Virus record (IMG/VR): IMGVR_UViG_3300036768_001066
Reading direction: 5' to 3' (one strand)
From: a virus
Taxonomy: Duplodnaviria > Heunggongvirae > Uroviricota > Caudoviricetes
DNA: 64,000 nt
The position numbers and the translations under genes were made by a program. The notes beneath the pieces were generated by a model. That model was not told the origin of the DNA. It saw nothing but the letters and a program-made list of their open reading frames with translations, and ran no database searches. Below, piece after piece: positions 11,772-48,219 of this stretch. Position 1 is the stretch's first letter. The number at the start of each line of letters is the position of its first letter.

Positions 11772-12713
11772 ATGAAAAAACGTTATTGCAAGGCATGCTC
11801 TATGCAGGAGCACGGGGTAAAAACCAGGATAGCCATACCGCACACGTGTGGCAAGGAGCCGCGCCGCATAAAGATGTTCGAGCAGTTCGTGTTCGAATCC
11901 ACTTACAATGTGCTGCACGGTACAAAGTCTCCTAAATTCGATAAGTTCCAGGTCAGTCATGATGAGGCCAACGGGATGTACGGCACAGACTCCCCCGATA
12001 ATGGCATGGGCGTGTTCTTCACCGATAACGATACAATGGCCGAGTTCTTCGCAGGTCTAACGCACTTCGATGCCGACAAGGGCAAATACGTGTCCAAGAG
12101 CGGCAAGGGACGTGTTATGAACGTGACCATCAGTATAGATAAGCCTTACGTCATCGATGACAAACACAAGGACTACGATGCCGATAACGATATGGACTCG
12201 GTGCAGATATATTTTGACGAAATAAAGGATGCTGGCGGTGCCGATAAGTACAGAGCTTCGTTAGAGAAGCGCGGATACGACGGGATAATCCTAAAGAAGT
12301 GCACCACGAATTATTACGGGAAGGGAACTTACACTGTATACGTTGTGTTCGATCCTCGCAATACTAAAATCAACGAGAACAAGTCCAAGATATACTACAA
12401 CCACTGGGACAAGCGTTGGACCATGAAGGAGTTCGTAAAGTATTTCGTGGACGAGCTGGGACTGTTCTCCGAACAGGAGGTTTCTAACTGGTTCGAGAAG
12501 TACGACTTAACCAATGATTCCGAGGTGGTTTGGGTGTCCATGGACAAGATGTCAAACAACACCAAGGGCATGTCTGTTGACCACTATTCTGGCGCCAACG
12601 ATGCGCCGAGTGCCGATATTTCGTCCATATTTGTTGACGGTGAGGATGGGTACGTGATCCCGGAAATTTCCGACGGTGCGAACAGCTGCCTCTTTGTTGT
12701 TAAACAAAAATAG
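11772..12713 (+). CDS. hypothetical protein. Has an internal leader-like motif MFEQFVFES at residue 35, which is an alternative start at 11874.
   Basis: 313-aa ORF. TATATATAAGAT lies directly upstream of 11772. The leader-like motif sits at an internal Met. Confidence 0.5.
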   Translation: MKKRYCKACSMQEHGVKTRIAIPHTCGKEPRRIKMFEQFVFESTYNVLHGTKSPKFDKFQVSHDEANGMYGTDSPDNGMGVFFTDNDTMAEFFAGLTHFDADKGKYVSKSGKGRVMNVTISIDKPYVIDDKHKDYDADNDMDSVQIYFDEIKDAGGADKYRASLEKRGYDGIILKKCTTNYYGKGTYTVYVVFDPRNTKINENKSKIYYNHWDKRWTMKEFVKYFVDELGLFSEQEVSNWFEKYDLTNDSEVVWVSMDKMSNNTKGMSVDHYSGANDAPSADISSIFVDGEDGYVIPEISDGANSCLFVVKQK

Positions 12714-19848: not shown

Positions 19849-20267
19849 GGATCAAGAGGTTCACCGAACTTAACGAGAAGGCGGAGATGTATGACTTCGG
19901 GTTTACTTCCGAGGTGCAGCGCCGCGATGTCAGCTACTACGGTGAGGACACTGTGGTGGACAAGTCCAAGGATCAGTACATAGATGCAAACGACCTGACC
20001 GTCGTGTGGGAGATGAACTTCGATAACCGCAAGTCTGGCATAAACAGCATGGCCCCAGTTATACATAGGGTCAGCGGCTATTACACAGTAGTCACACCTT
20101 CGGACGACAAGGACGGCGAGAATGAGGTTGAGTTCAGCATCATCAAGGGCGACGGAGAGTGGGAAATGAACGGTGTGCTTTCCAGCGAGTTTGAGTTTGG
20201 TGGTTCCATGTACCCCAATGACATTGAGATCGATTTCAAGAAGAAGACGATAACCGTCAACTTCTGA
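19845..20267 (+). CDS. hypothetical protein, leader family ([11 protein letters not shown])
   Basis: 140-aa ORF. Confidence 0.5.
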
Positions 20268-20368: not shown

Positions 20369-21223
20369 ATGAAAAAATTCGGATTATTAGCGATAGCTCT
20401 GAAGATAGGATCAAAGATCCTGAGCATACTCGCAAAAAGCACAAAGTTCGTTCTCGCCGGCGTTTCGTTCGCCGCTTACGCATACATATTCACCTGGCAA
20501 TTTTCCGTGATAATATTGTCCATGCTGATAGTCCACGAGTACGGTCATATCTGGGCTATGCAGCGTTGCGGCATAAAGACCAAGGGCATCTACCTGATAC
20601 CGTTCGTCGGCGGTCTCGCGGTCTCGGACGGCATGGCCAAGTCGAGGTGGGATGAGGTCTACATCGCTATGATGGGGCCCATATTCGGGTTCGCCCTATC
20701 GGTGGTGTCTCTTGTCATATACTGCGCCACCATGGACCCCCTATTTGCCGCGTGCGCATCGTGGATGGCCATGGTCAACATACTTAATCTGTTCCCTGTT
20801 ACCCCACTGGACGGAGGCAGGGTGCTGAAATCAATAACCTTGTCGATAGACAAGCGCGTTGGGTTCGCGTACATGCTGCTTGCGCTGCTTGCCATGCTTG
20901 CGGCCGTCGTGTTTCTCGGCCTGTGGACGTTTGTCGTCCTGATAATAATCGGTGGCCTCGAGCTTTACTTCGAGTACCAGAGCCACAAGATACAGCAGAC
21001 GTTGACCGAACTGGAGAAGCACAAGCCCAACCTGACCGATGAGAGCGCGAAGATCATGGACGAGCTGATAGAGAAGCACCGCGATACTACGGAGAAAATG
21101 GACGGGCGCATGATGATAAAGTCGATGGCGCTTTACCTTTTGGTGCTGGCCGCGCTGTACGTAGTTATGGCGCTGATGAACCACGTGCCCGGCGCAGACA
21201 TAGCAATGCAAATGCTTAAGTAA
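20369..21223 (+). CDS. M50 family site-2 protease (RseP/SpoIVFB-like membrane zinc metalloprotease)
   Basis: HEYGH (HExxH) inside a TM helix. LFPVTPLDGGRV (LDG motif). Multiple TM segments. Confidence 0.6.
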   Translation: MKKFGLLAIALKIGSKILSILAKSTKFVLAGVSFAAYAYIFTWQFSVIILSMLIVHEYGHIWAMQRCGIKTKGIYLIPFVGGLAVSDGMAKSRWDEVYIAMMGPIFGFALSVVSLVIYCATMDPLFAACASWMAMVNILNLFPVTPLDGGRVLKSITLSIDKRVGFAYMLLALLAMLAAVVFLGLWTFVVLIIIGGLELYFEYQSHKIQQTLTELEKHKPNLTDESAKIMDELIEKHRDTTEKMDGRMMIKSMALYLLVLAALYVVMALMNHVPGADIAMQMLK

Positions 21224-28095: not shown

Positions 28096-28932
28096 ATGAC
28101 TAAAAGAATAGACACCAAAGAGAGGAACAAGCAGATTGCGGCCCGTTATGCGGAGCTCGTGTCTGTCGATGTGTCGCCGGACGATGCTATTCAGAAAATC
28201 TCTGATGAACAGGAGATTGGCAAATTTTACGTACGCAGCATTCTCCGAGCTATTGGGGTGCGCATAGGCCGCAAGGGACAGTATGACCGCAAGGGCAACC
28301 TGTCGGACAGGGATCGCCAGATCATCGAGCTTGCCGAGAAGGGCGAGACGCCGGAGGACATTGGCAGCCGCTTTGAGATAACCCCAACGAGGGTCCGTCA
28401 GGTTGTGCGTGACAATGTCACTGATTTGAAACACGTACGCATTGAACGTACGCTGTCCGAGATAAAGAACGAAGTCGCCAACTACCAGGAGATGATAAAG
28501 TCCAACGAGAACATGAAGTCCGAGGAAAACCCGGGCGGCATCGACCGAACATGGAAAACCTGGTACCGCGGCATCACATCCAAGTACGGAGAGAAAACTA
28601 TGAGGGAGATAAAATCCAACCTCGGGTACAATCTGTTCAAGGAGTCGCAGAGATACCGCGACGAGAACATCGTGCAGATGGGCAAGATCGGCGGATTCTC
28701 GGCACAGTACACGGCAGACAAGCACGGACTGTGCAAGGATTACGTGTACAGCATCTGGCACAGCAATGGTGTGCACAAGGACAAGAAGAAGAAACTCACA
28801 CCCAAGGAGCGCCAGCAGCGAGACGCCAAGATTCGTGAAGCGTGTAAAACAAAGAAGATAGGCGAGGTCGCCAAGGATTTCGGTCTGTCGTATACAATGG
28901 TGAAACTAATAAATTCAGATAATGTCCGGTAA
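28096..28932 (+). CDS. putative transcriptional regulator with sigma-70 region-4-like helix-turn-helix motifs
   Basis: LSDRDRQIIELAEKGETPEDIGSRFEITPTRVRQVV resembles sigma region 4 / LuxR HTH. A second HTH-like IGEVAKDFGLSYTMVKLI. Confidence 0.45.
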   Translation: MTKRIDTKERNKQIAARYAELVSVDVSPDDAIQKISDEQEIGKFYVRSILRAIGVRIGRKGQYDRKGNLSDRDRQIIELAEKGETPEDIGSRFEITPTRVRQVVRDNVTDLKHVRIERTLSEIKNEVANYQEMIKSNENMKSEENPGGIDRTWKTWYRGITSKYGEKTMREIKSNLGYNLFKESQRYRDENIVQMGKIGGFSAQYTADKHGLCKDYVYSIWHSNGVHKDKKKKLTPKERQQRDAKIREACKTKKIGEVAKDFGLSYTMVKLINSDNVR

Positions 28933-37300: not shown

Positions 37301-37708
37301 GTGAAAACATCCCCCTACAATCTATTACAGGAGATTTACCGATCGGACGACTGGAAGATTTTCGTTTGCTGTATGATGCTTAACCAAACTACCAGGCAGC
37401 AAGTGGACCGGGTTCGGCACGAATTCTTCCGTAGGTGGCCGAACGCCAGGAAGGCCATGTCTGCCGATCCATTGGAAATGGCAGAGCTGATAAAGCCGCT
37501 GGGATTCTCAAACAAACGCAGCACAGGGATAATAAAGATGAGCGCGGACTACATAGAGAAGGAATGGCGCGAACCGAAGGACTTGTACGGACTCGGTCAA
37601 TACGCACAGGACTCATACGACATATTCATCCGAAAGCGACTCGACCTGAAGAACCCGGCCGATAAATTCCTCAGCAAATACATGGAATGGGCCAGGTGCA
37701 GGTTGTAA
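37301..37708 (+). CDS. MBD4-like HhH-GPD DNA glycosylase (mismatch-specific thymine/uracil glycosylase domain); GTG start
   Basis: [27 protein letters not shown] resembles human MBD4 [55 protein letters not shown] resembles [43 protein letters not shown] resembles LHGIGKYGNDSYRIF, including the catalytic Asp. Confidence 0.7.
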   Translation: [135 protein letters not shown]

Positions 37709-37767
37709 GTTTTTCCAATTTACTATTTTTATTACCTTCACTTCATCAAAACAAATAATAGATAAAC

Positions 37768-38369
37768 ATGGAAAACTATCGTAAGTACATTTTCTGGGGG
37801 TAATCGGGTTCGTCCTGTTCTTCACAGGTTGCAGTAGCTATGTAAGCTACAACAACATGGTATCAATGGAAGAAACCGTAACGGCTAAGTGGTCACAGGT
37901 TGAGAACGTATACCAGCGGAGGTCGGACCTCATTCCGAACTTGGTTAACACTGTCAAGACAGAAGCCAACTTTGAAAAATCAACGCTCGAAGCGGTGATT
38001 CAAGCGCGTGCAAGCGCCACGCAAGTTAAGATTGATCCTACAAACCTGACACCGGAATCCATGAAGGCATTCGAGGCGGCACAAGGTCAACTTGGCACAA
38101 CTCTATCTCGCTTGTTGGTGACGATGGAGCAGTATCCGAACCTCAAATCCAATGAGGCGTTCAACCAGCTGATGTCGCAGCTCGAGGGCACGGAGAACCG
38201 CATAACCGTAGAGCGCCGCGAGTTCAACATCGCTGTGCAGGACTACAACAAGTACATCAGAAGGTTCCCAAAAAATGTGTGGGCCGGCATGTTCGGATTT
38301 CAGACCAAGGCGTACTTCCAGGCAGACAAGGGAGCAGAAAAAACACCAACCGTAAACTTTGACAAATAA
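37768..38369 (+). CDS. LemA-family lipoprotein. The reading frame is broken at a G5 homopolymer (37796-37800): the N-terminal signal/lipobox segment and the LemA body are in different frames.
   Basis: MENYRKYIFWG, then in the next frame VIGFVLFFTGC (lipobox FTGC) SSYV...WSQVENVYQRRSDLIPNLV (LemA signature). Adding one G joins them perfectly. Confidence 0.5.
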
Positions 38370-38373
38370 AAAT

Positions 38374-38604
38374 ATGGGATTTCTTGACAAATTATGGAAA
38401 GACCCCAACGCGGGTAAGACCACAGAGGAGAAAAAGGAGGAGACGCCTAAGAGCGGCAGGTCGTCCAAGAAGAAAAATAAAATGGCTTCATTGGAATGGA
38501 TTGCATTTGGTGTCGGCATGTTTTGCTGTGCCGTCATCATCTTGCAAATTATTATTATTTTGACAAGCTGGACAAGTAGGTCCGGCGCAACAGAGATTAA
38601 ATGA
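38374..38604 (+). CDS. small membrane protein
   Basis: 77 aa with the TM segment WIAFGVGMFCCAVIILQIIIIL. Confidence 0.35.
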   Translation: MGFLDKLWKDPNAGKTTEEKKEETPKSGRSSKKKNKMASLEWIAFGVGMFCCAVIILQIIIILTSWTSRSGATEIK

Positions 38605-39089
38605 TCAACGAAGGAACTACCGGGGAAGAGTCCGATAAGGAAGTTGGAGAAGGTTCGCTCTTGGCGCGATGGGGGCATGCCATTATACGCAAGTTCTACT
38701 ACTGGCGCATGCGTAAGTATGTGAGGATGTCCGGCATGTGGAACCGCCGGATGAACTCGGACCAGGCGAAGTGCTTCGGCATCATCCGCAACCTCGCGGC
38801 CAAGTCGGATTCCGAACTGATGATAGCGCCAATCTCGCAGAAGTTTTACATCCGCTATGGCGACATATTCGTGATAGTGGAGCGTGGCACGGTTAGTATA
38901 ATTAACGGGAGGTACCACTATGACATATCGGTCACAGACGATCTCAACGGCAAGATAACGTCTTTCCTGCACAAGGTGATAGAGCGCCGCAGGGCAGCGC
39001 TCGAGGCCGAGGTCAGATCGAAGATAGACCGCAGCCTCGACAACATATACTACGAGACGCGCAACATGAAAGGACCAAAAAAAGATTAA
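38601..39089 (+). CDS. hypothetical protein
   Basis: 162-aa ORF. Confidence 0.45.
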   Translation: MINEGTTGEESDKEVGEGSLLARWGHAIIRKFYYWRMRKYVRMSGMWNRRMNSDQAKCFGIIRNLAAKSDSELMIAPISQKFYIRYGDIFVIVERGTVSIINGRYHYDISVTDDLNGKITSFLHKVIERRRAALEAEVRSKIDRSLDNIYYETRNMKGPKKD

Positions 39090-39090
39090 C

Positions 39091-39582
39091 ATGTCACTAT
39101 ATTATTTCGCATACGGAAGCAACATGAACCCCGACCGCATGACTGCGAGAGGCGTGGCGTTCGAGTCGTTCGAGTACGGGCACTTGCACCACTACAGATT
39201 ACGGAGCAACAAGATGTCGCAGAAGTACAGGACGCTCGCGTTCGTCAACATCGAGCCGTGCTTCGAGTCGAGTGTGTTCGGCGTGCTGTACACGTTGCCG
39301 TCGACCGCCCAGCTGGAGGAACTGGACAAGAAGGAGGGCTACCCTAACCACTACGAGAAGTGCTTCGTACCGGTGCATACCAAAGAGGGTATGAAGCTCG
39401 CGCTCGTTTACGTGGCTACCCGCAACTGGGCGAGCGAGAACGACCTGCCGATGCCGTCGGAATATAAGGCGCTCATGAATTCCGGATTGGACAAGTGCGA
39501 GGATCTGGTCATCGAGGACAAACAACTATACGAGGCGTTCTTACACTACAAGGAGAAGACACAAGAAATGACAATGATATGA
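39091..39582 (+). CDS. gamma-glutamyl cyclotransferase-like (AIG2/GGCT fold) protein
   Basis: N-terminal YYFAYGSNMNP (YGSNL signature of the GGCT/AIG2 family). Confidence 0.65.
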   Translation: MSLYYFAYGSNMNPDRMTARGVAFESFEYGHLHHYRLRSNKMSQKYRTLAFVNIEPCFESSVFGVLYTLPSTAQLEELDKKEGYPNHYEKCFVPVHTKEGMKLALVYVATRNWASENDLPMPSEYKALMNSGLDKCEDLVIEDKQLYEAFLHYKEKTQEMTMI

Positions 39583-39722
39583 ACAAGATATTTTACGGCT
39601 TCGGTCGAGACTACCTAAAACTGCTCGACTACGGAGAATACAACGAAGAGAACTATCACGGACAGAACGAATCTGACGCAGACATCATGTATGTGGGCAT
39701 CAGCAAAATCACCCGATAGTCT
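39582..39722 (+). CDS. small hypothetical protein (46 aa)
   Basis: Hand-translated MNKIFYGFGRDYLKLLDYGEYNEENYHGQNESDADIMYVGISKITR. Confidence 0.25.
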
Positions 39723-39825
39723 GGACTTCTTGCATCGGCCAATAAGTCAATGGACAGCATCGACAAGCATGGAGAGGGAAAGGAGATTGGCGAGTGGCTT
39801 CTGATTCGAGTACGAGGAACACGGC

Positions 39826-40638
39826 ATGCCCGACCAACAATACAGAATTCGCCGGCAAGTTCAACGCGTCATAGGTGTTTATACGTTTTTACTCAACCTG
39901 CTATACGTCAACAGTAAGTACTACCATGTTCAGATCCCGGCGAGCATGCACTCGCTAATAGGTATAGTCATCGGCTTGCTGCTCGTTTTCAGGACGAACA
40001 CCGCGTACGACCGCTGGTGGGAGGGACGCAGGCTCTTCAGCGCGCTGTCGACCTCAATATCTTACTTCTCAATAAAATTGAACTCGTGCTGCACCGACGT
40101 CCTCGTGAAGACGCAGGCCCGTAACATCATAAAGCAGATACTGCGCAACCTGTCCGACTACCTGCGAGAGACGAACGCCGATAACGTCATGGGACATCAT
40201 AATAAGCAGACCAAGTTCGTTTGCGATATGTTGTTACTCATACGCGACGCCAAGTTGTCTGACAGGGACCTCAACATTCTCGAGGACAAACTAAATGAGA
40301 TAGTTGACATATCCAACTCGTTCGAGCGTATCAAGAGCACGCCGATACCGAAGGCGTACGCCCTGCACATAAAGGCATCGATATTCATATACCTGCTGAG
40401 CCTGCCATTCGGGTTGTTTCACGACCTCGGACTCTGGGCCGCAGCGATGGTCATGGTCATATTCTACATAGTCGCCGGCATCGAGATAATAAGCAACGAG
40501 ATAGAGGACCCATTCGCGGACGATCCGAACGACCTGCCGATAGACACGTACTTCAAGCAGATAAAGGACTCTATGAACATAATCAAGGAGAGCGTGAACT
40601 CGGAGTACGGGAAGTACGGAAAGGAGACCCTGAAATGA
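39826..40638 (+). CDS. bestrophin/UPF0187-family membrane channel homolog
   Basis: RTNTAYDRWWEGRRL matches the bestrophin-family RxxxAYxRWWEAR signature. Several TM helices. Confidence 0.6.
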   Translation: MPDQQYRIRRQVQRVIGVYTFLLNLLYVNSKYYHVQIPASMHSLIGIVIGLLLVFRTNTAYDRWWEGRRLFSALSTSISYFSIKLNSCCTDVLVKTQARNIIKQILRNLSDYLRETNADNVMGHHNKQTKFVCDMLLLIRDAKLSDRDLNILEDKLNEIVDISNSFERIKSTPIPKAYALHIKASIFIYLLSLPFGLFHDLGLWAAAMVMVIFYIVAGIEIISNEIEDPFADDPNDLPIDTYFKQIKDSMNIIKESVNSEYGKYGKETLK

Positions 40639-40898
40639 TTTGGCCGTTTAAACGCAAGAAGCAAGTTAAGCCCTGCTGTGGTAACTGCGCGCACTACAAC
40701 AAGGTCAGGGTGCAGGGTAACAGACTGGAAGACATAATGCTTGGACTGTGCGACAACAAGGATGTGCGCAGCGCGTGCGTTCCGTACGGCAGAACAGCGA
40801 ATGGCTTCTACAGGTGGGACTGGCCCGGTGAGTCACCGTTCGGCCCGGTATCTTTCGATCCAGAGTTCAGCTGTAAACATTTCAAGCCCAAGCAATGA
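40635..40898 (+). CDS. Cys-rich small protein
   Basis: 87 aa with CCGNCAHY...C...C...C. Confidence 0.4.
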   Translation: MIWPFKRKKQVKPCCGNCAHYNKVRVQGNRLEDIMLGLCDNKDVRSACVPYGRTANGFYRWDWPGESPFGPVSFDPEFSCKHFKPKQ

Positions 40899-41056
40899 CA
40901 AACAAATACGAAAAGGCAGAGCTCGCCGCAAAGTGGTTATCCGAGCTCGCCAAAAGGATAATATAACAATAGTGACGGTTATGTGCATCGCCCCATGAGG
41001 GACTCGTCCATTCCGGACGTCATAATAGTTGATCATCTCAGCCTGATGAATTAAAC

Positions 41057-41084
41057 AAAGCCCGGTTTGTCCGGGCTTTTTTAT
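41057..41084 (+). terminator. rho-independent terminator (aagcccgg / ccgggctt plus TTTTTTATT)
   Basis: Hairpin and T-run. Confidence 0.6.
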
Positions 41085-41090
41085 TGATCC

Positions 41091-41269
41091 ACCACAATTT
41101 TCCGCAAATTTCCTGATATATACAGAGTAGATACCATCTGTTCGAAGTCCAATTTATATAGACCAATCAAAGGTTTTCAAGCGTTTAGAGTCCCAGAATA
41201 CTAAAGGCTCTGGGAAGTTTTATCCTTTTTGAAAGGATTTTCCAAAAATTTCCAGATATATAAAGACAA
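41091..41269 (+). promoter_or_regulatory. two copies of a 30-bp element, ATTTTCCnnAAATTTCCnGATATATAmAGA, at 41091-41121 and 41239-41269, upstream of the head-gene cluster. TATATAAAGA resembles the T4 late promoter TATAAATA.
   Basis: Direct repeat seen in the sequence. The second copy ends 21 nt before the prohead protease/scaffold start. A small hairpin, cccagaatactaaaggctctggg, lies between the copies. Confidence 0.4.
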
Positions 41270-41289
41270 AGGAATCAACCTTACAACGG

Positions 41290-43278
41290 ATGAATACAAA
41301 CCTGCAACTACAAGAGAACTACGTGTTCCTCCTCGAGCGTGCTGAGAGCAACCTCGTGGTAGAGGCTACGGGTAGCAATCCGAAAGACTACATTCTCGAA
41401 GGTATCGCCGCTATCATGGGCGAGGAGAATAACAACCACAGGATTTACGAGGCAAAGGAGTATCTTCCGCACCTCGAGTACCTAAACAAGAAGATTCAGC
41501 AGAAGCGCCTGGTCGGAGAGCTCGACCACCCAGAGAAGTTTGACGTTTCCCTCAAGAACATATCCCACATAGTTGAGAAGCTCGAGTACAACGAGAAGGA
41601 CAGGACCCTCAGGATTCGCGTGCGCTTGCTCGACACTCCACACGGACAGATTGCCAAGACATTAGTAGACGCCGGATACCCGCTGTCTATTTCTTCGCGT
41701 GCTGCCGGTTCTGTTATGGAGAACAAGAAGGTTAAGATCAAAAAGATATTCACATACGACCTCGTCGCAGACCCTGGTTTCGAAAAGGCACAGCTTGATA
41801 GGATTTACGAGAGCGCGAACTTTGATGCGGGCACTAAAAAGTCCGTTATTTCAGAGCTTACGGACATCTCGGAGAGCTTTGCGCCAGAATTTTCCGCACA
41901 CACGAAGATATATAGTGTAGATCCGAACAATGCGGCGTTTAAGAAGGCGATGCTGGATGAGGACAAAAAAACCAACAACGACATGAATCAATTCGTAACA
42001 TCTGAAGAGCTCAACGATTGGTCCGCTGCATTCCGTACCGGAATCATGAAGGAGATTGAAAATGTTAAGTCGAAGGTTACCGAGTCTACTGATGCTGAAA
42101 TTATCAAGACCCTTCTTGAAAAAATCGAGAAGCACGAGAGGTACATGAAGTATCTCGCAGGCAACCTTGATAAGAACATTCAGTACACTGAGTACGTGGC
42201 TGAGAACCTCGACAAGAACATCGAGTATTCTAAGTACCTCGCAGAGAACCTCGACCGTAACATTTCTTACAGCGAGTACCTCGCAGAGAACCTCGACCGT
42301 AACATTTCTTACAGCGAGTACCTCGCAGAGAACCTCGACCGCGGTATTTCGTTTATGGACTACCTCGCAGAGAACCTCGAGAAGAACATCAACTACAGCG
42401 AGTACCTCGCAGAGAACCTCGACAAGAACATTTCTTATTCCGAGTACCTCGCAGAGAACCTCGACAAGAACATTTCTTATTCCGAGTACCTCGCAGAGAA
42501 CCTCGACAAGAACATTTCTTATTCCGAGTACCTCGCAGAGAACCTCGACAGGGGAATCGGATATTCTGAGTATTTGGCAGAAAAAATCGAGAATAACATC
42601 GCTTATTCCGAATATATAGCTGAAAACGTCGTTGCTGCGGCCCCAGCGGTTACCGCAATGCCAGCAGCTACGAACAATAGTTCTGCACCGATAGCCAAGG
42701 TTAACGAGAGCGTAGCTGAGGCGAACAAATACACTGGTTTGTCCGCACAGATAAACCAACTGCTGGAGGCCGCTACTAAACAGAAAGCCGCCACCAAAAT
42801 GAACGAGAGCCAGTACCACTTCTTCCGCTTCCTAAGCGAAGCTAAGAGGAACGAGTTCGAAGCCCTCGAGGAGGCCAAGAAAGAAAAGGTCGCAAACGCC
42901 CTGAAACCAGGTGCGTACTTTTCAGAAGCTGACGTAACCAAAATTTGGGAAGCAGCTTTGATTGAGAAGCAGGATGACACTCCGAAGTTCCTGCAAATGA
43001 TTCCGGAGTCGATTAAGCCGCTCTACGAGGCGCTTACCGAATCCGAAAAGCAAGGCATACTTGCACAGAGCAAATTGATGAACCTCGACACCGAGTACAA
43101 AATCAAGAACTTCTGGACAAGCAGGCCATTTGTAAGGGGCAAGGTTGTTGGACTTGTAAAACTCAACGAAAATGAAACGGCAGTTCCAGCGAACACCGAT
43201 AAAACCAAGACACTCGGCTACGGCACAGAGTACATGGACAAAATCGCGTCACAACTCGGACAACGTTTTAAAAAGTAA
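41290..43278 (+). CDS. prohead protease (T4 gp21-like, N-terminal) fused to a scaffold/core domain containing about 11.5 tandem 14-aa repeats (YSEYLAENLDKNIS)
   Basis: N-terminus GIAAIMGEENNNHRIYEAKEY...GELDHPE resembles the gp21/U35-type prohead protease signature (GxxG..N.NgRiY). The helical acidic repeat array is encoded by a 42-bp periodicity at 42151-42630. The gene lies immediately upstream of the major capsid gene. Confidence 0.6.
   Translation: MNTNLQLQENYVFLLERAESNLVVEATGSNPKDYILEGIAAIMGEENNNHRIYEAKEYLPHLEYLNKKIQQKRLVGELDHPEKFDVSLKNISHIVEKLEYNEKDRTLRIRVRLLDTPHGQIAKTLVDAGYPLSISSRAAGSVMENKKVKIKKIFTYDLVADPGFEKAQLDRIYESANFDAGTKKSVISELTDISESFAPEFSAHTKIYSVDPNNAAFKKAMLDEDKKTNNDMNQFVTSEELNDWSAAFRTGIMKEIENVKSKVTESTDAEIIKTLLEKIEKHERYMKYLAGNLDKNIQYTEYVAENLDKNIEYSKYLAENLDRNISYSEYLAENLDRNISYSEYLAENLDRGISFMDYLAENLEKNINYSEYLAENLDKNISYSEYLAENLDKNISYSEYLAENLDKNISYSEYLAENLDRGIGYSEYLAEKIENNIAYSEYIAENVVAAAPAVTAMPAATNNSSAPIAKVNESVAEANKYTGLSAQINQLLEAATKQKAATKMNESQYHFFRFLSEAKRNEFEALEEAKKEKVANALKPGAYFSEADVTKIWEAALIEKQDDTPKFLQMIPESIKPLYEALTESEKQGILAQSKLMNLDTEYKIKNFWTSRPFVRGKVVGLVKLNENETAVPANTDKTKTLGYGTEYMDKIASQLGQRFKK
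42151..42630 (+). repeat. coding tandem repeat, 42-bp unit repeated about 11.4 times, inside the protease-scaffold gene
   Basis: Near-identical units tacctcgcagagaacctcgacaagaacatttcttattccgag. Confidence 0.8.
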
Positions 43279-43296: not shown

Positions 43297-44811
43297 ATGA
43301 AAATGATCAACGAACAAGAGGTTTTTGAAACTTGGTCTCCGGTTATCAACGAGAAGACTAATATCAAAGACTCGAACAAAGTAGAATGGCTTTCTAAGTA
43401 CTGCCACTACCACTCGCTCAATGAGTCTGCTATCCACGCTGGATACGGCACTCTCGACGCGCTTAACGGTATGGGCCAGCCTTTGGCTCCGACCAGGTCC
43501 GCTAACGGTTCCGGCGACAAGTTCCCTTCACTTCTTCCGCTCGCTATCCAGGTAGCAGCTAAGACTGTAGGTTTCGACATCGTTCCGGTTATCCCGATGC
43601 CAGGCCCAACAGGTGTTCTCACCTACCTCGATTACGTTTACGCAGGTGGACGTATCGACAACGCTGACCATAAGCCACTCCTGATCAAGTTCAACGCGAC
43701 AGGTACGTGGACTAACGGTACATCGTACACCGCAACTTCAGGTGCTGGTACCCTTGCCCTTACCTTCGTTGGTAAGTCGAGGATCGACGGTTACCCAATC
43801 TTCAAGGTTGGTGCATCTACTCCGTCTACCATCTCTGTAGCTCAGGTTATTGGTGTGGTTGGCGCGACAGTAACAACTGACGCAGCTCCGGTTGCAGCTA
43901 CTAACGCTGCTGCCCTCGTAGCAATGCTCGAAGATCACATCCAAGGTTTCGCTGGTGCAGGTGACACTGACACAGCTAACTGGACCGGTCCTTACGCAGA
44001 TGCTAACGACTCTGGTCCAATGACCCGTGAAGTTGGTGAGTCTACCTACTACAGGACGACTAACCTCAAGACTTTCACCAAGTTCGTTGAGACTGAGACC
44101 TACCAGCTTGCTGCGCAGGTAACTACTGAGCAGATACAAGACCTTAACAAGCAGTTCGGTATCGACGTTGTGTCGATGGTTGAGAACTCGCTCGTTAACG
44201 ATGTATCACAGCACATCAACAAACACATCCTCGTGACCGCATTCGGTCTTGGTACGCAGAACGCTACTGAGTTCGCTGCAACTGAAGGACAGGTGCTCGA
44301 CCTCAACCTTACGGCTCTGCCTACGGTTGGTACGTACGAGAACCTCCAGACGTTCCAGAGGAGAATCTTCAGCCGCATACTTGCTGCCGCTAACGTAGTA
44401 GCAAACCGTGGTCGTCGTGGACCTGCGAACTTCGTTGTATGTAACTCTCAGATTGCTACGGCGATCCAGGACATCAGCCAGTTCCAGCCAGCTCCGTTCG
44501 CGAACACCGCAAGCCAGAACAACGGTGCTCTCTACCCAGTAGGATCACTCGCTGGTATGACTGTGTACGTTGACCAGAACATGAAGTGGACTGACACTCG
44601 CGTACTTGTCGGCCGTAAGGGCGCAGACGACGAGCCAGGTCTGAAGTTCATGCCGTACATGATGGCTGAGTCTATCCAGACAATCTCTGAAGGCACTATG
44701 TCTCCGAAGATCGCTGTGAAGTCTCGCTACGCCCTCGTGTCAGCTGGATTCCACCCACAGACAATGTACTTCACTTTCACGATCCAGGTGCCTACCTCAG
44801 GTATCATCTAA
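43297..44811 (+). CDS. major capsid protein, T4 gp23-like (HK97 fold)
   Basis: FDIVPVIPMPGPTGVLTYLDYVYAGG resembles the conserved gp23 core block (V..V.PM..P.G.i.YL). 504 aa. Preceded by the protease-scaffold gene and followed by a strong terminator. Confidence 0.75.
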   Translation: MKMINEQEVFETWSPVINEKTNIKDSNKVEWLSKYCHYHSLNESAIHAGYGTLDALNGMGQPLAPTRSANGSGDKFPSLLPLAIQVAAKTVGFDIVPVIPMPGPTGVLTYLDYVYAGGRIDNADHKPLLIKFNATGTWTNGTSYTATSGAGTLALTFVGKSRIDGYPIFKVGASTPSTISVAQVIGVVGATVTTDAAPVAATNAAALVAMLEDHIQGFAGAGDTDTANWTGPYADANDSGPMTREVGESTYYRTTNLKTFTKFVETETYQLAAQVTTEQIQDLNKQFGIDVVSMVENSLVNDVSQHINKHILVTAFGLGTQNATEFAATEGQVLDLNLTALPTVGTYENLQTFQRRIFSRILAAANVVANRGRRGPANFVVCNSQIATAIQDISQFQPAPFANTASQNNGALYPVGSLAGMTVYVDQNMKWTDTRVLVGRKGADDEPGLKFMPYMMAESIQTISEGTMSPKIAVKSRYALVSAGFHPQTMYFTFTIQVPTSGII

Positions 44812-47416: not shown

Positions 47417-47530
47417 TTTCTTCGTTTTCGAGGTGAAGGTGGTCGTAGATGATCTGTCGAGCAGGACAAGGCCGTCGACCGCCTTCGTTGCCTCGCGTAT
47501 CTCATCCATCAAGTCGTCCGGCCCGCCCAT
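47417..47530 (-). CDS. small hypothetical protein (37 aa)
   Basis: MGGPDDLMDEIREATKAVDGLVLLDRSSTTTFTSKTKK. TAATG overlap with the clpP stop. Confidence 0.25.
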
Positions 47531-48219
47531 TACTTCTTAGCAGAAGGGTCAGCTATAAGAATCTCATCGATCATTCCGTACTCCTTGGCTTGGCCGGATG
47601 TCATCCAGTAGTCACGGTCCGAGTCGGTCCACACCTTGTCGTACGTCTGACCCGAGTGGTTCGCGATTATCTCGTACAGTTCCTTCTTGAGAATCTGGAT
47701 CTCTCTGGCGGTGATCTCGATGTCCGAAGCCTGCCCCTCGGCGCCTCCGAGCGGCTGGTGTATCATTATCCTCGAGTGCTTTAGTGCCGAGCGCTTGCCC
47801 CTGGCACCTGCACACATAAGTACCGCTCCCATGGATGCTGCCATCCCGGTGCAGATGGTCGCTACGTCGGGCGTGATGTACTGCATGGTGTCGTATATTC
47901 CGAGACCCGCGTATACGCTGCCGCCTGGTGAGTTGATGTAAATTTGGATGTCCTTCTTTCCGTCGAGCGACTGCAGGAAGAGGAGCTGCGCCTGTATGAT
48001 GTTCGCGACCTCGTCGTATATCCCCGTTCCGAGGAAGATGATGCGGTCCATCATGAGACGCGAGAACACGTCCATCTCTGCCACGTTGAGCTGACGCTCC
48101 TCGATGATGTACGGTGTTATGCTGCTGTTGATGCCGTGCTTCGTGTAGGAATCAAACGTGTTTGAACTGATGCCCCTGTGTTTGACGGCATACTTTCTGA
48201 ATTCGTCTCTATTGTTCAT
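47530..48219 (-). CDS. clpP: ATP-dependent Clp protease proteolytic subunit ClpP
   Basis: INSPGGSVYAGLGIYDTM. TICTGMAASMGAVL (catalytic Ser). IMIHQPLGG (catalytic His). 229 aa. Confidence 0.85.
   Translation of the reverse strand: MNNRDEFRKYAVKHRGISSNTFDSYTKHGINSSITPYIIEERQLNVAEMDVFSRLMMDRIIFLGTGIYDEVANIIQAQLLFLQSLDGKKDIQIYINSPGGSVYAGLGIYDTMQYITPDVATICTGMAASMGAVLMCAGARGKRSALKHSRIMIHQPLGGAEGQASDIEITAREIQILKKELYEIIANHSGQTYDKVWTDSDRDYWMTSGQAKEYGMIDEILIADPSAKK

What the first reader, a model, noticed from the sequence alone, without database searches (positions are those of the whole stretch)
39826..40638. Phage-encoded bestrophin-family channel together with other host-like membrane and stress proteins
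RTNTAYDRWWEGRRL is the hallmark of bestrophin/UPF0187 anion channels. The neighbourhood also has a GGCT/AIG2-like enzyme (39091), LemA (37768), an M50 site-2 protease (20369) and small membrane proteins. Such genes are unusual in T4-like phages. They suggest manipulation of host membrane physiology, for example ion flux, regulated intramembrane proteolysis, or glutathione or gamma-glutamyl metabolism, during infection.
Basis: partly seen in the sequence, partly recalled or inferred. Interest (0 to 1): 0.5.

Follow-up and report, generated by a model that had tools for sequence, protein, structure and literature searches.

The report
Truncated bestrophin channel gene in jumbo phage
The ORF really is a bestrophin-type ion-channel gene carried by a ~374 kb phage, but this copy lost its first 32 codons to a 1 kb deletion and is probably crippled, while intact copies form a large, apparently undescribed family in huge phages.

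Summary
ORF 39826-40638 (270 aa) matches Pfam Bestrophin_2 (E 9e-50) and KpBest by sequence and fold, and the motif follows TM2. GGACT, LemA and an M50 protease with intact catalytic motifs are also real.

This copy is a deletion derivative. Compared with sister contigs (93-94% nt), a ~1 kb deletion removed most of a 346-aa gene and bestrophin codons 1-32. The first 14 codons come from that neighbouring pseudogene. The lost part holds conserved residues, the N-terminal 'belt' helix and half of helix S1; TM1 hydropathy drops below threshold. LemA (1-nt deletion) and a 61-aa gene are also broken. An independent assembly is 100% identical, so the lesions are real. omega on the window branch is ~0.14 against 0.03-0.05 in relatives.

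At family level, all verified phage copies, 12 IMG/VR copies and 114 top metagenome hits form one clade. It is separate from 80 Bacteroidota chromosomal homologs (33-40% identity). It spans two jumbo-phage lineages and is under strong purifying selection. No GenBank phage has one, and I found no paper on phage bestrophins.

The genes do not form a module: M50 lies 18.6 kb away. The capsid is closest to huge phages. The neck is 'ILF', like Na+-selective KpBest, so anion selectivity is unproven.

The parts
39826..40638 (+). Chimeric 270-aa ORF: 14 N-terminal codons from a neighbouring pseudogene fused to bestrophin codons 33-288
   Evidence: ORF list; Pfam Bestrophin_2 E 9e-50; junction analysis against L013
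39826..39867 (+). Non-bestrophin 5' end. MPDQQYRI is an internal piece of the 346/347-aa protein (…EYEEHGMPDQQYRIKF…); RRQVQR is frame-shifted sequence after a 14-nt deletion
   Evidence: Translation of L013 8644-9687 and blastn alignment
39868..40638 (+). Retained bestrophin body (256 codons), 97% aa identity to P0001 residues 33-288; no indels or stop codons
   Evidence: blastn/tblastn; dN/dS 0.07
39934..39990 (+). TM2 (residues 37-55) carrying the hydrophobic neck I47/L51/F55, equivalent to KpBest I62/I66/F70
   Evidence: Hydropathy; column mapping to KpBest; AF2 helix 39-88
39991..40035 (+). Motif RTNTAYDRWWEGRRL (residues 56-70) at the cytosolic end of TM2. R56, Y61, R63 and R68 are invariant; K-to-R at residue 69 is specific to the window
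   Evidence: Alignments; branch analysis
39579..39867 (+). Decayed remnant of a 346/347-aa gene (phrog_6077, unknown function) that is intact in L013, L100 and L101. It carries 42-, 5-, 2-, 5-, 93- and 14-nt deletions, a 1-nt insertion and a TAG at 39717-39719, leaving a 46-codon ORF at 39579-39719
   Evidence: blastn alignment; tblastn p346; PHROG
39867..39868 (.). Junction of the ~1003-nt deletion (relative to L013 9095-10096). It removed the 3' two-thirds of the 347-aa gene, an 89-aa gene and bestrophin codons 1-32
   Evidence: identical junction in the independent contig L099
39091..39582 (+). Intact GGACT/AIG2-like gamma-glutamyl cyclotransferase (YFAYGSN motif, E82), the conserved upstream neighbour in Group A phages
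   Evidence: Pfam; phrog_2520; synteny; dN/dS 0.12
38601..39089 (+). Intact conserved 162-aa gene of unknown function, upstream of GGACT in all close relatives
40635..40898 (+). Intact 87-aa Cys-rich gene overlapping the bestrophin stop codon (ATGA). 100% aa identity to L013 (dN = 0); conserved only in the window's sublineage
40895..41051 (+). Remnant of a 61-aa gene, disrupted by 1-nt and 25-nt deletions
   Evidence: tblastn in two frames and blastn alignment
41057..41079 (.). Bidirectional intrinsic terminator (9-bp stem, 6 GC pairs) that closes the transcription unit before the head-gene module
   Evidence: conserved in L013
37768..38369 (+). LemA gene with a 1-nt deletion in the T-run at 37790-37793. 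This separates the start codon and the beginning of the lipoprotein-type signal (MENYRKYIF|LGVIGFVLFFTGCSS) from the LemA domain ORF 37857-38369
20369..21223 (+). Intact M50 (site-2-protease-like) gene, 18.6 kb away, preceded by a GATATATA motif at 20266

Best explanation
The ORF is what remains of an accessory bestrophin gene that this lineage of huge phages carries.

In intact relatives the gene encodes a KpBest-like protein of about 286-293 aa. It has four TM helices plus a cytosolic helical domain. By homology it should assemble as a pentameric ion channel in the host inner membrane, with a hydrophobic I-L-F neck on TM2.

Inferred: the channel is made outside the head-gene transcription unit and changes the monovalent-ion permeability and membrane potential of the infected (probably Bacteroidota) cell.

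In this genome a ~1 kb deletion removed the start codon and 32 codons. Those codons encode the N-terminal belt helix and the cytosolic half of helix S1. The rest is now fused to 14 codons of a decayed neighbouring gene.

The most likely outcome is a loss-of-function or severely weakened allele: poor translation start, a marginal TM1 and no inter-protomer belt. It is caught early in decay within a small accessory island where LemA, the 346-aa gene and a 61-aa gene are also broken.
For: Family identity: Pfam E 9e-50; KpBest by sequence E ~1e-19; AF2 model of P0001 pLDDT 85 with Foldseek TM-score 0.72-0.82 to KpBest; neck I/L/F conserved.

Deletion and chimera: homology to L013 starts only at 39868, the N-terminus equals an internal peptide of the 347-aa protein, and there are multiple indels upstream.

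The lost segment matters: invariant P20 and >=90% conserved Y23/L27/T31; helices 12-18 and 20-32 lost; in bestrophins the N-terminal extension wraps the adjacent protomer (PMC8496536); TM1 hydropathy is 1.04 against 1.48 and falls below threshold.

Derived state: P0001, P0153 and P0154 (>=90% identity) are all full length.

Relaxation signal: window branch 7 nonsynonymous and 14 synonymous changes, L013 branch 0 and 7; omega ~0.14 against 0.03-0.05 in relatives. Window-specific changes hit near-invariant positions (K69R, N228D).

Weak start context: GC-rich former coding sequence, whereas most genes here have A-rich leaders. A gene caller chose Met41 instead (P0152, 230 aa).

Neighbouring lesions: LemA and the 61-aa gene.

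Lesions are real: L099 is 100% identical over 12.3 kb.

Accessory status: the gene is absent near gp23 in 3 of 4 close and 51 of 51 more distant capsid relatives.
Against: The retained 256 codons have no frameshift or stop. Overall dN/dS against L013 is 0.07, and even the window branch (omega ~0.14) is far from neutral. The branch contrast is not significant (Fisher p = 0.14).

The 14-nt deletion puts ATG 39826 in frame with the bestrophin body. Without it the frame ends in TAG at the junction, which could reflect selection to keep the protein expressed (a 1-in-3 chance event otherwise).

A GAGGAA sequence lies 6 nt upstream of the ATG. The hydrophobic core of TM1 (VIGVYTFLLNLLYV) and positive charges ahead of it are retained. 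AF2 still models the same fold, although the alignment drives that result.

No expression or functional data exist. The physiological role of any bacterial bestrophin is unknown.
Confidence: 0.55

Rival explanations
1. The truncated gene is still a working channel. It would be translated from ATG 39826, with the short basic N-terminus (RIRRQVQR) and the retained hydrophobic core acting as TM1, and the N-terminal belt would be dispensable in this subfamily. The phage would keep using it to alter host ion flux.
For: No indels or stops in 771 nt, while the adjacent ~290-nt remnant carries at least 7 indels and a stop. dN/dS is 0.07 overall and ~0.14 on the window branch, far below 1. The 14-nt deletion makes an in-frame fusion. 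A GAGGAA sequence lies upstream. The translationally coupled 87-aa gene is perfectly conserved. The AF2 fold is retained.
Against: The invariant and near-invariant N-terminal residues and the belt helix are lost. TM1 is sub-threshold. Nonsynonymous change is elevated at conserved sites. All three nearest relatives keep the full N-terminus. The start context is atypical. The low dN/dS is equally expected if the deletion is recent.
Confidence: 0.3
2. One reading: an intact phage bestrophin anion channel acting together with LemA, the M50 protease and GGCT as a coordinated module that manipulates host membrane physiology.
For: All four protein families are truly present. GGACT-bestrophin adjacency is conserved in Group A phages. 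M50 has intact catalytic motifs.
Against: Bestrophin is 5'-truncated and LemA is frameshifted. M50 is 18.6 kb away behind a different promoter-like motif. LemA is absent at this place in L013. Bestrophin, LemA and M50 do not co-occur in relatives. Anion selectivity is not supported by the neck type (PMC8496536).
Confidence: 0.08
3. Artefact: the truncation and frameshifts come from misassembly or sequencing error, and the real genome carries intact genes.
For: The LemA lesion is a single base in a short homopolymer. The source is metagenomic.
Against: An independently assembled contig from an SRA run is 100% identical over 12,317 bp, including both lesions. The 346-aa remnant has eight separate indels plus a stop, a pattern of evolutionary decay rather than error. 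The two assemblies may share reads, so this is not fully independent.
Confidence: 0.04

Closest known systems
KpBest, the Klebsiella pneumoniae bestrophin homolog (PDB 4WD7/4WD8, 6IV0 and related entries); E. coli YneE/UPF0187 family
   Same: Same Pfam family (Bestrophin_2). Similar length in full-length relatives (~288 aa). Four TM helices plus a cytosolic helical bundle, TM-score 0.72-0.82. Hydrophobic neck triad on TM2 with an aliphatic middle residue (ILF versus IIF). Conserved R71/Y76/R78, P208, P262 and D269 equivalents.
   Different: Only ~21% identity. Encoded by phages, in a clade separate from chromosomal homologs. The position aligned to the KpBest aperture residue I180 is variable (Arg in the window; N/P/R/I across the clade). 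G264 is replaced by Ala. The window copy lacks the N-terminal 32 residues.
Chromosomal bestrophins of Bacteroidota (Flavobacterium, Chitinophaga, Cytophagales)
   Same: The closest cellular relatives and probable donor phylum; same domain architecture and length.
   Different: 33-40% identity only. They form a separate clade in the NJ tree. Their neck is 'FLF' rather than 'ILF', and the aperture-aligned position is acidic.
Eukaryotic bestrophins (BEST1-4), plant VCCN1 and bestrhodopsins (PDB 7PL9, 7EK1)
   Same: Homologous pore domain. The TM2 motif and the C-terminal E-x-P-F…NDLP region align.
   Different: The eukaryotic proteins are Ca2+- or light-gated anion channels with an IFF neck and long C-terminal tails. 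None of these features was shown here.
Virus-encoded channels (chlorovirus Kcv; bestrophin genes reported in giant-virus MAGs, PMC13335480 citing Perini et al. 2024)
   Same: A virus carrying a host-derived ion-channel gene.
   Different: Those are eukaryotic viruses. I found no report of bestrophins in bacteriophages, and PHROGs lists the matching family as 'unknown function'.

Membership tests
Bestrophin_2 (bacterial/fungal bestrophin, KpBest-like) | Profile match above the curated threshold | tested here: met
   PF25539: 170 bits against a cut-off of 27, E 9e-50, profile positions 26-286 of 288
Bestrophin_2 (bacterial/fungal bestrophin, KpBest-like) | KpBest-type fold (TM helices plus cytosolic helical domain) | tested here: met
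   P0001 model pLDDT 85; Foldseek TM-score 0.72-0.82 to 4wd7/6iv*. The window model has the same fold, pLDDT 89
Bestrophin_2 (bacterial/fungal bestrophin, KpBest-like) | Hydrophobic three-residue neck on TM2 | tested here: met
   I47/L51/F55 align with KpBest I62/I66/F70. In the phage clade F is invariant, L is in 129 of 133 sequences and I in 104 of 133
Bestrophin_2 (bacterial/fungal bestrophin, KpBest-like) | Complete N-terminal extension and full-length helix S1 (the belt around the adjacent protomer) | tested here: not met
   The window copy lacks P0001 residues 1-32 (helix 12-18, the first half of helix 20-46, invariant P20). They are replaced by 14 unrelated polar residues
Bestrophin_2 (bacterial/fungal bestrophin, KpBest-like) | Four membrane-spanning segments | tested here: inconclusive
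   Kyte-Doolittle scan: P0001 has 4 segments. In the window protein 3 pass the threshold, and the best TM1 19-mer scores 1.04
Bestrophin_2 (bacterial/fungal bestrophin, KpBest-like) | Homopentameric assembly and ion conduction; ion selectivity | not testable with these tools
   Needs multimer modelling, biochemistry and electrophysiology
Eukaryotic Ca2+-activated Cl- bestrophin (PF01062 type) | IFF neck, Ca2+ clasp, anion selectivity | tested here: not met
   Pfam reports only PF25539. The neck middle residue is Leu, not Phe. The Ca2+ clasp was not assessed
Peptidase M50 (site-2 protease) | HExxH and NxxPxxxLDG motifs in a polytopic membrane protein | tested here: met
   HEYGH at residue 56 and NLFPVTPLDG at residues 140-149; Pfam E 4e-20. 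It scores far below the RseP equivalog cut-offs, so it is not an RseP ortholog
LemA | LemA domain plus N-terminal membrane anchor or signal in one reading frame | tested here: not met
   The domain is present (E 5e-57), but the start codon and the first nine codons of the signal are out of frame through a 1-nt deletion. The signal's hydrophobic core and lipobox lie in the LemA frame but have no in-frame start codon. Homologs align to the repaired N-terminus
GGACT/GGCT (gamma-glutamyl cyclotransferase fold) | Profile match; N-terminal YGS(N/L) motif and catalytic Glu | tested here: met
   PF06094 E 4e-12 and phrog_2520. The sequence shows YFAYGSN (residues 5-11) and E82 in KKEG. The roles of these motifs are recalled from knowledge of GGCT and were not tested

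The most novel reading that the evidence does not exclude
Huge phages that probably infect Bacteroidota maintain their own long-lived, monophyletic family of bestrophin ion channels. The family has at least 130 clusters at 90% identity, occurs in two phage lineages, and shows omega of about 0.03-0.05. The phages would use these channels to reset host membrane potential or ion balance during infection. This would be an unrecognised class of phage-encoded channel. The window allele would then be a natural N-terminal 'belt' deletion that shows what the belt is needed for.
Probability: 0.5. Interest if true: 0.65.

Novelty: new member of a known kind. Interest (0 to 1): 0.45.

Why it matters
Ion channels encoded by bacteriophages are rare, and what bacterial bestrophins do physiologically is unknown.

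The phage clade is conserved and strongly selected, which argues that channel activity pays off during infection. It also gives a tractable entry point: express P0001-like proteins and measure selectivity and effects on membrane potential, superinfection and lysis timing.

For annotation, the case is a warning. A perfect family motif and a strong Pfam hit can sit in a gene that has lost its 5' end. Only comparison with sister genomes revealed that this copy, and two to three of its neighbours, are decaying.

Tried and rejected
- Stop-codon recoding (a known Lak-phage trait) as an explanation for the in-frame stops. Rejected: all three stops are used (TAA 37, TGA 25, TAG 8) and 87% of the window is coding under the standard code.
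- T4 late promoter TATAAATA: 1 hit against 1.1 expected.
- DHFR as a functional partner. Bestrophin-DHFR adjacency in 8 IMG/VR loci looked promising, but DHFR is ordinary phage nucleotide metabolism and lies 18 kb away here.
- The 87-aa Cys-rich downstream gene as a universal partner: conserved only in the window's sublineage.
- The aperture residue (KpBest I180 aligns with Arg here) as a clue to selectivity: the column is too variable and gappy to trust.
- Defence or anti-defence role: no PADLOC hits.
- AF2 on the window protein to judge the N-terminus: uninformative, because the alignment forces the chimeric residues onto helix S1.
- LemA relatives in IMG/VR by peptide patterns: none found. 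tblastn against GenBank phages worked instead.
- GenBank 'Acinetobacter phage MD-2021a' bestrophin hits: these are bacterial chromosome mislabelled as phage.
- NCBIfam gives no model for the bestrophin, and only sub-threshold RseP and MamQ hits for M50 and LemA.

Full report

Yes. ORF 39826..40638 (+) encodes 270 aa. It matches Pfam PF25539 Bestrophin_2 at E 9.4e-50, 170 bits against a cut-off of 27. It matches the solved Klebsiella bestrophin KpBest (4WD7/4WD8 and mutants) at E ~1e-19, and the bestrophin domain of a bestrhodopsin (7PL9). The motif RTNTAYDRWWEGRRL is residues 56-70, immediately after the TM2 hydrophobic segment 37-55.

The named neighbours are also real:
- GGACT/AIG2 at 39091..39582 (E 4e-12).
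- A LemA domain at 37857..38369 (E 5e-57).
- Peptidase_M50 at 20369..21223 (E 4e-20), with HEYGH56 and NLFPVTPLDG140-149 intact.

**2. What genome is this?**

There is no near match in 50,697 GenBank phage records. The capsid protein Gp23 (43297..44811) is closest to an uncultured 462 kb phage (45%), to Prevotella Lak megaphages (~40%) and to Tenacibaculum jumbo phages.

A 230-aa protein identical to window residues 41-270 (P0152) is on record on a 373,759-bp JGI contig and on a Logan contig, L099. L099 is 100% identical to window 29946-42262. The window therefore comes from a ~374 kb jumbo phage.

The standard genetic code applies. Three lines point to Bacteroidota as host, but this is inference only: only 18 of 66 gene starts have SD-like motifs and most have A-rich leaders; the closest cellular bestrophins are almost all from Bacteroidota; and the capsid relatives infect that phylum.

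The window holds a broad scattered set of host-like genes: gp32, a UvsW-like helicase, ART, NAD synthase, a sigma-like protein, dUTPase, DHFR, ClpP, GNAT and NAD-ligase.

**3. The key finding: this copy is a deletion derivative.**

The best database hit, P0001 (97% identity, 288 aa), lies on a sister contig, L013. Window and L013 are collinear at 93-94% nt identity, except that L013 9095-10096 is missing from the window.

That ~1 kb deletion removed three things: the 3' two-thirds of a 347-aa gene (phrog_6077, unknown function), an 89-aa gene, and bestrophin codons 1-32.

The window ORF's first residues, MPDQQYRI, are an internal peptide of the 347-aa protein (…EYEEHGMPDQQYRIKF…). A 14-nt deletion then shifts the frame (RRQVQR), and the bestrophin sequence begins at V15, which equals P0001 V33.

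The remnant of the 347-aa gene (39579-39867) also carries 42-, 5-, 2-, 5- and 93-nt deletions, a 1-nt insertion and a TAG, so it is a pseudogene.

Two more close relatives, L100 (P0154) and L101 (P0153), have full-length bestrophins. They show the ancestral order: 162-aa gene, GGACT, 346-aa gene, bestrophin, ~88-aa gene, with overlapping stops and starts.

**4. What was lost?**

In a 65-sequence alignment of the phage clade, the missing segment contains invariant P20 and >=90% conserved Y23, L27 and T31. The AF2 model of P0001 (pLDDT 85) has helices 12-18 and 20-46, the latter being S1. The window keeps only residues 33-46 of S1.

In solved bestrophins the N-terminal extension (helices s1a/s1b) wraps around the neighbouring protomer like a belt (PMC8496536).

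By hydropathy, P0001 has four TM segments. In the window protein the best TM1 19-mer falls from 1.48 to 1.04, below threshold, and the 14 substituted residues average -1.99 against -0.29.

AF2 still gives the same fold for the window protein (pLDDT 89). The alignment drives that result, so it is not evidence of function.

**5. Selection.**

Over the shared 256 codons, window against L013 gives dS 0.21 and dN/dS 0.07. I polarised changes with L100 and L101 as outgroups:

| Branch | Synonymous | Nonsynonymous |
|---|---|---|
| Window | 14 | 7 |
| L013 | 7 | 0 |

Fisher p = 0.14. omega is ~0.14 on the window branch against 0.03-0.05 among relatives.

The window-specific replacements include near-invariant positions: K69R in the hallmark motif and N228D. 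This fits a recent loss of constraint, but it does not exclude continued, weaker selection.

Points in favour of retained function:
- The retained body has no indel or stop.
- The fusion is in frame only because of the 14-nt deletion.
- A GAGGAA sequence lies upstream of the ATG.

**6. The neighbourhood is decaying too.**

LemA: the ATG at 37768 reads MENYRKYIFWG*. One extra T in the run at 37790-37793 would give MENYRKYIFLGVIGFVLFFTGCSS…, a lipoprotein-type signal continuous with the LemA domain. Homologs, including one in a 635 kb uncultured phage (50% identity), align to this repaired N-terminus.

A 61-aa gene that is intact in L013 is split by 1-nt and 25-nt deletions at 40895-41051.

By contrast, the 162-aa gene, GGACT and the 87-aa gene are intact with low dN/dS. 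All lesions recur in L099.

**7. Family level: a phage bestrophin clade.**

Every context I inspected among the top hits is phage-like.

- Group A comprises the window, L013, L014, L095, L100, L101 and L006. GC is 47-50% where measured (L006, L013, L014 and the window region). Bestrophin sits after GGACT and before the S77 protease and Gp23.
- Group B comprises eight IMG/VR loci plus L097 and L098. The eight IMG/VR loci have GC 31-36%. Contigs reach 376 kb. Bestrophin sits among the 4HBT, YqeY, DUF3307, Metallophos, AAA, NUDIX and NAMPT genes.
- L096 is another dense phage-like contig.

In an NJ tree of 214 sequences, the 80 best genome-derived Bacteroidota homologs (33-40% identity) form one clade. 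All 7 verified phage sequences, the 12 IMG/VR sequences and the 114 top metagenome sequences form the other. Groups A and B are mutually exclusive subclades.

PHROGs has a matching family, phrog_35011, labelled 'unknown function'. The only GenBank 'phage' hits are mislabelled Acinetobacter chromosome. Literature searches found bestrophins only in giant viruses of eukaryotes, not in bacteriophages.

The gene is accessory. Near gp23 it is present in 1 of 4 close capsid relatives with enough flank, and in 0 of 51 more distant ones.

**8. How it most likely works.**

Shown: family, fold, a conserved hydrophobic neck (I47/L51/F55, equivalent to KpBest I62/I66/F70), and strong purifying selection in phages.

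Inferred by homology: a homopentameric inner-membrane channel.

Selectivity is unknown. KpBest ('IIF') conducts Na+, and the I66F mutation makes it Cl- selective (PMC8496536). The phage 'ILF' neck has an aliphatic middle residue, so anion selectivity should not be assumed.

The block is closed by a strong terminator at 41057-41079. It also lacks the enriched GATATATA promoter-like motif, which occurs 13 times against 0.87 expected and precedes the head genes and M50. The block is therefore probably expressed separately from the head module.

My best guess, which is inference only: the intact channel resets ion permeability and membrane potential of the infected cell. For the allele in this window, loss or severe weakening of function is the most likely state (0.55), and a still-functional shortened channel is the main rival (0.30).

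**9. Verdict.**

The window gene itself is an ordinary decaying accessory gene. The more interesting result is the previously undescribed phage-specific bestrophin clade.

Noticed in passing
window 2898, 6284(-), 12860, 14400, 16595, 16682, 20266, 34001(-), 41115, 41255, 41907, 51764, 56330: GATATATA occurs 13 times against 0.87 expected (0 of 100 shuffles reach 13). Nearly all copies are intergenic and point toward the downstream gene. An extended form, AAATTTCCnGATATATA, occurs twice before the prohead protease. It is probably a phage promoter class. The classical T4 late motif TATAAATA is not enriched.
   Followed up: partly
window 37768-38369: LemA carries a 1-nt deletion in a T-run (37790-37793) that cuts its start codon and the beginning of its lipoprotein-type signal from the domain. 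The same lesion is present in an independent assembly (L099).
   Followed up: yes
window 40895-41051: A 61-aa gene that is intact in sister contig L013 is disrupted here by 1-nt and 25-nt deletions.
   Followed up: yes
window 30830-33244: An 804-aa protein has major-vault-protein shoulder and Vault_3 domains plus an SPFH/Band 7 domain. It has no PHROG, PADLOC or NCBIfam match. This is an unusual protein for a phage.
   Followed up: no
window 20369-21223; L102 and L137 (IMGVR_UViG_3300028558_000016, 482 kb): The M50 site-2-protease-like gene with intact catalytic motifs has no tblastn match in 50,697 GenBank phages. One relative (42% identity) lies on a 482 kb IMG/VR contig whose capsid is 77% identical to the window's.
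   Followed up: partly
window 41290-43278 (repeats ~42150-42630): The S77 prohead protease ORF contains about 11 tandem copies of a 14-aa unit (YSEYLAENLDKNIS). This causes spurious LTI65_PGEED Pfam hits.
   Followed up: no
window 34901-36328 and 33259-33996(-): The family-B DNA polymerase ORF is only 475 aa (the exonuclease domain plus the start of the polymerase domain), and no continuation lies next to it. A NUMOD3 homing-endonuclease-like gene is nearby, which suggests a split polymerase gene.
   Followed up: no
window 47530-48219(-), 28922-29839, 11772-12713, 28096-28932: Other host-like genes are present: ClpP (E 5e-75), NAD synthase, an ART-PolyVal ADP-ribosyltransferase, and a protein with sigma-70 region 4.
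   Followed up: no
window 40635-40898: An 87-aa Cys-rich gene overlaps the bestrophin stop codon (ATGA) and is 100% identical in protein to its L013 counterpart (dN = 0, dS 0.20). It is conserved only in the window's sublineage.
   Followed up: partly
GenBank CAKLQH020000018.1 and related records (L183): Records named 'Acinetobacter phage MD-2021a' are bacterial chromosome (metL, glnG, acoABC and pdhC flank yneE). They contaminate phage collections and produce false 'phage' hits for bestrophin and LemA.
   Followed up: yes
L014 10001-11107 (P0002): The bestrophin of this sister phage has a ~80-aa C-terminal extension with a weak Multi_ubiq (PF14452) match, E 0.0014.
   Followed up: no
L013 3517-3699, L014 6273-6455, L101 4046-4228; L098 8793-9356: Sister contigs encode a 60-aa Hc1 (chlamydial histone-like, PF07432) protein. 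A Group B contig carries an Acb1-type 2H phosphoesterase (anti-CBASS family) just upstream of the bestrophin block.
   Followed up: no
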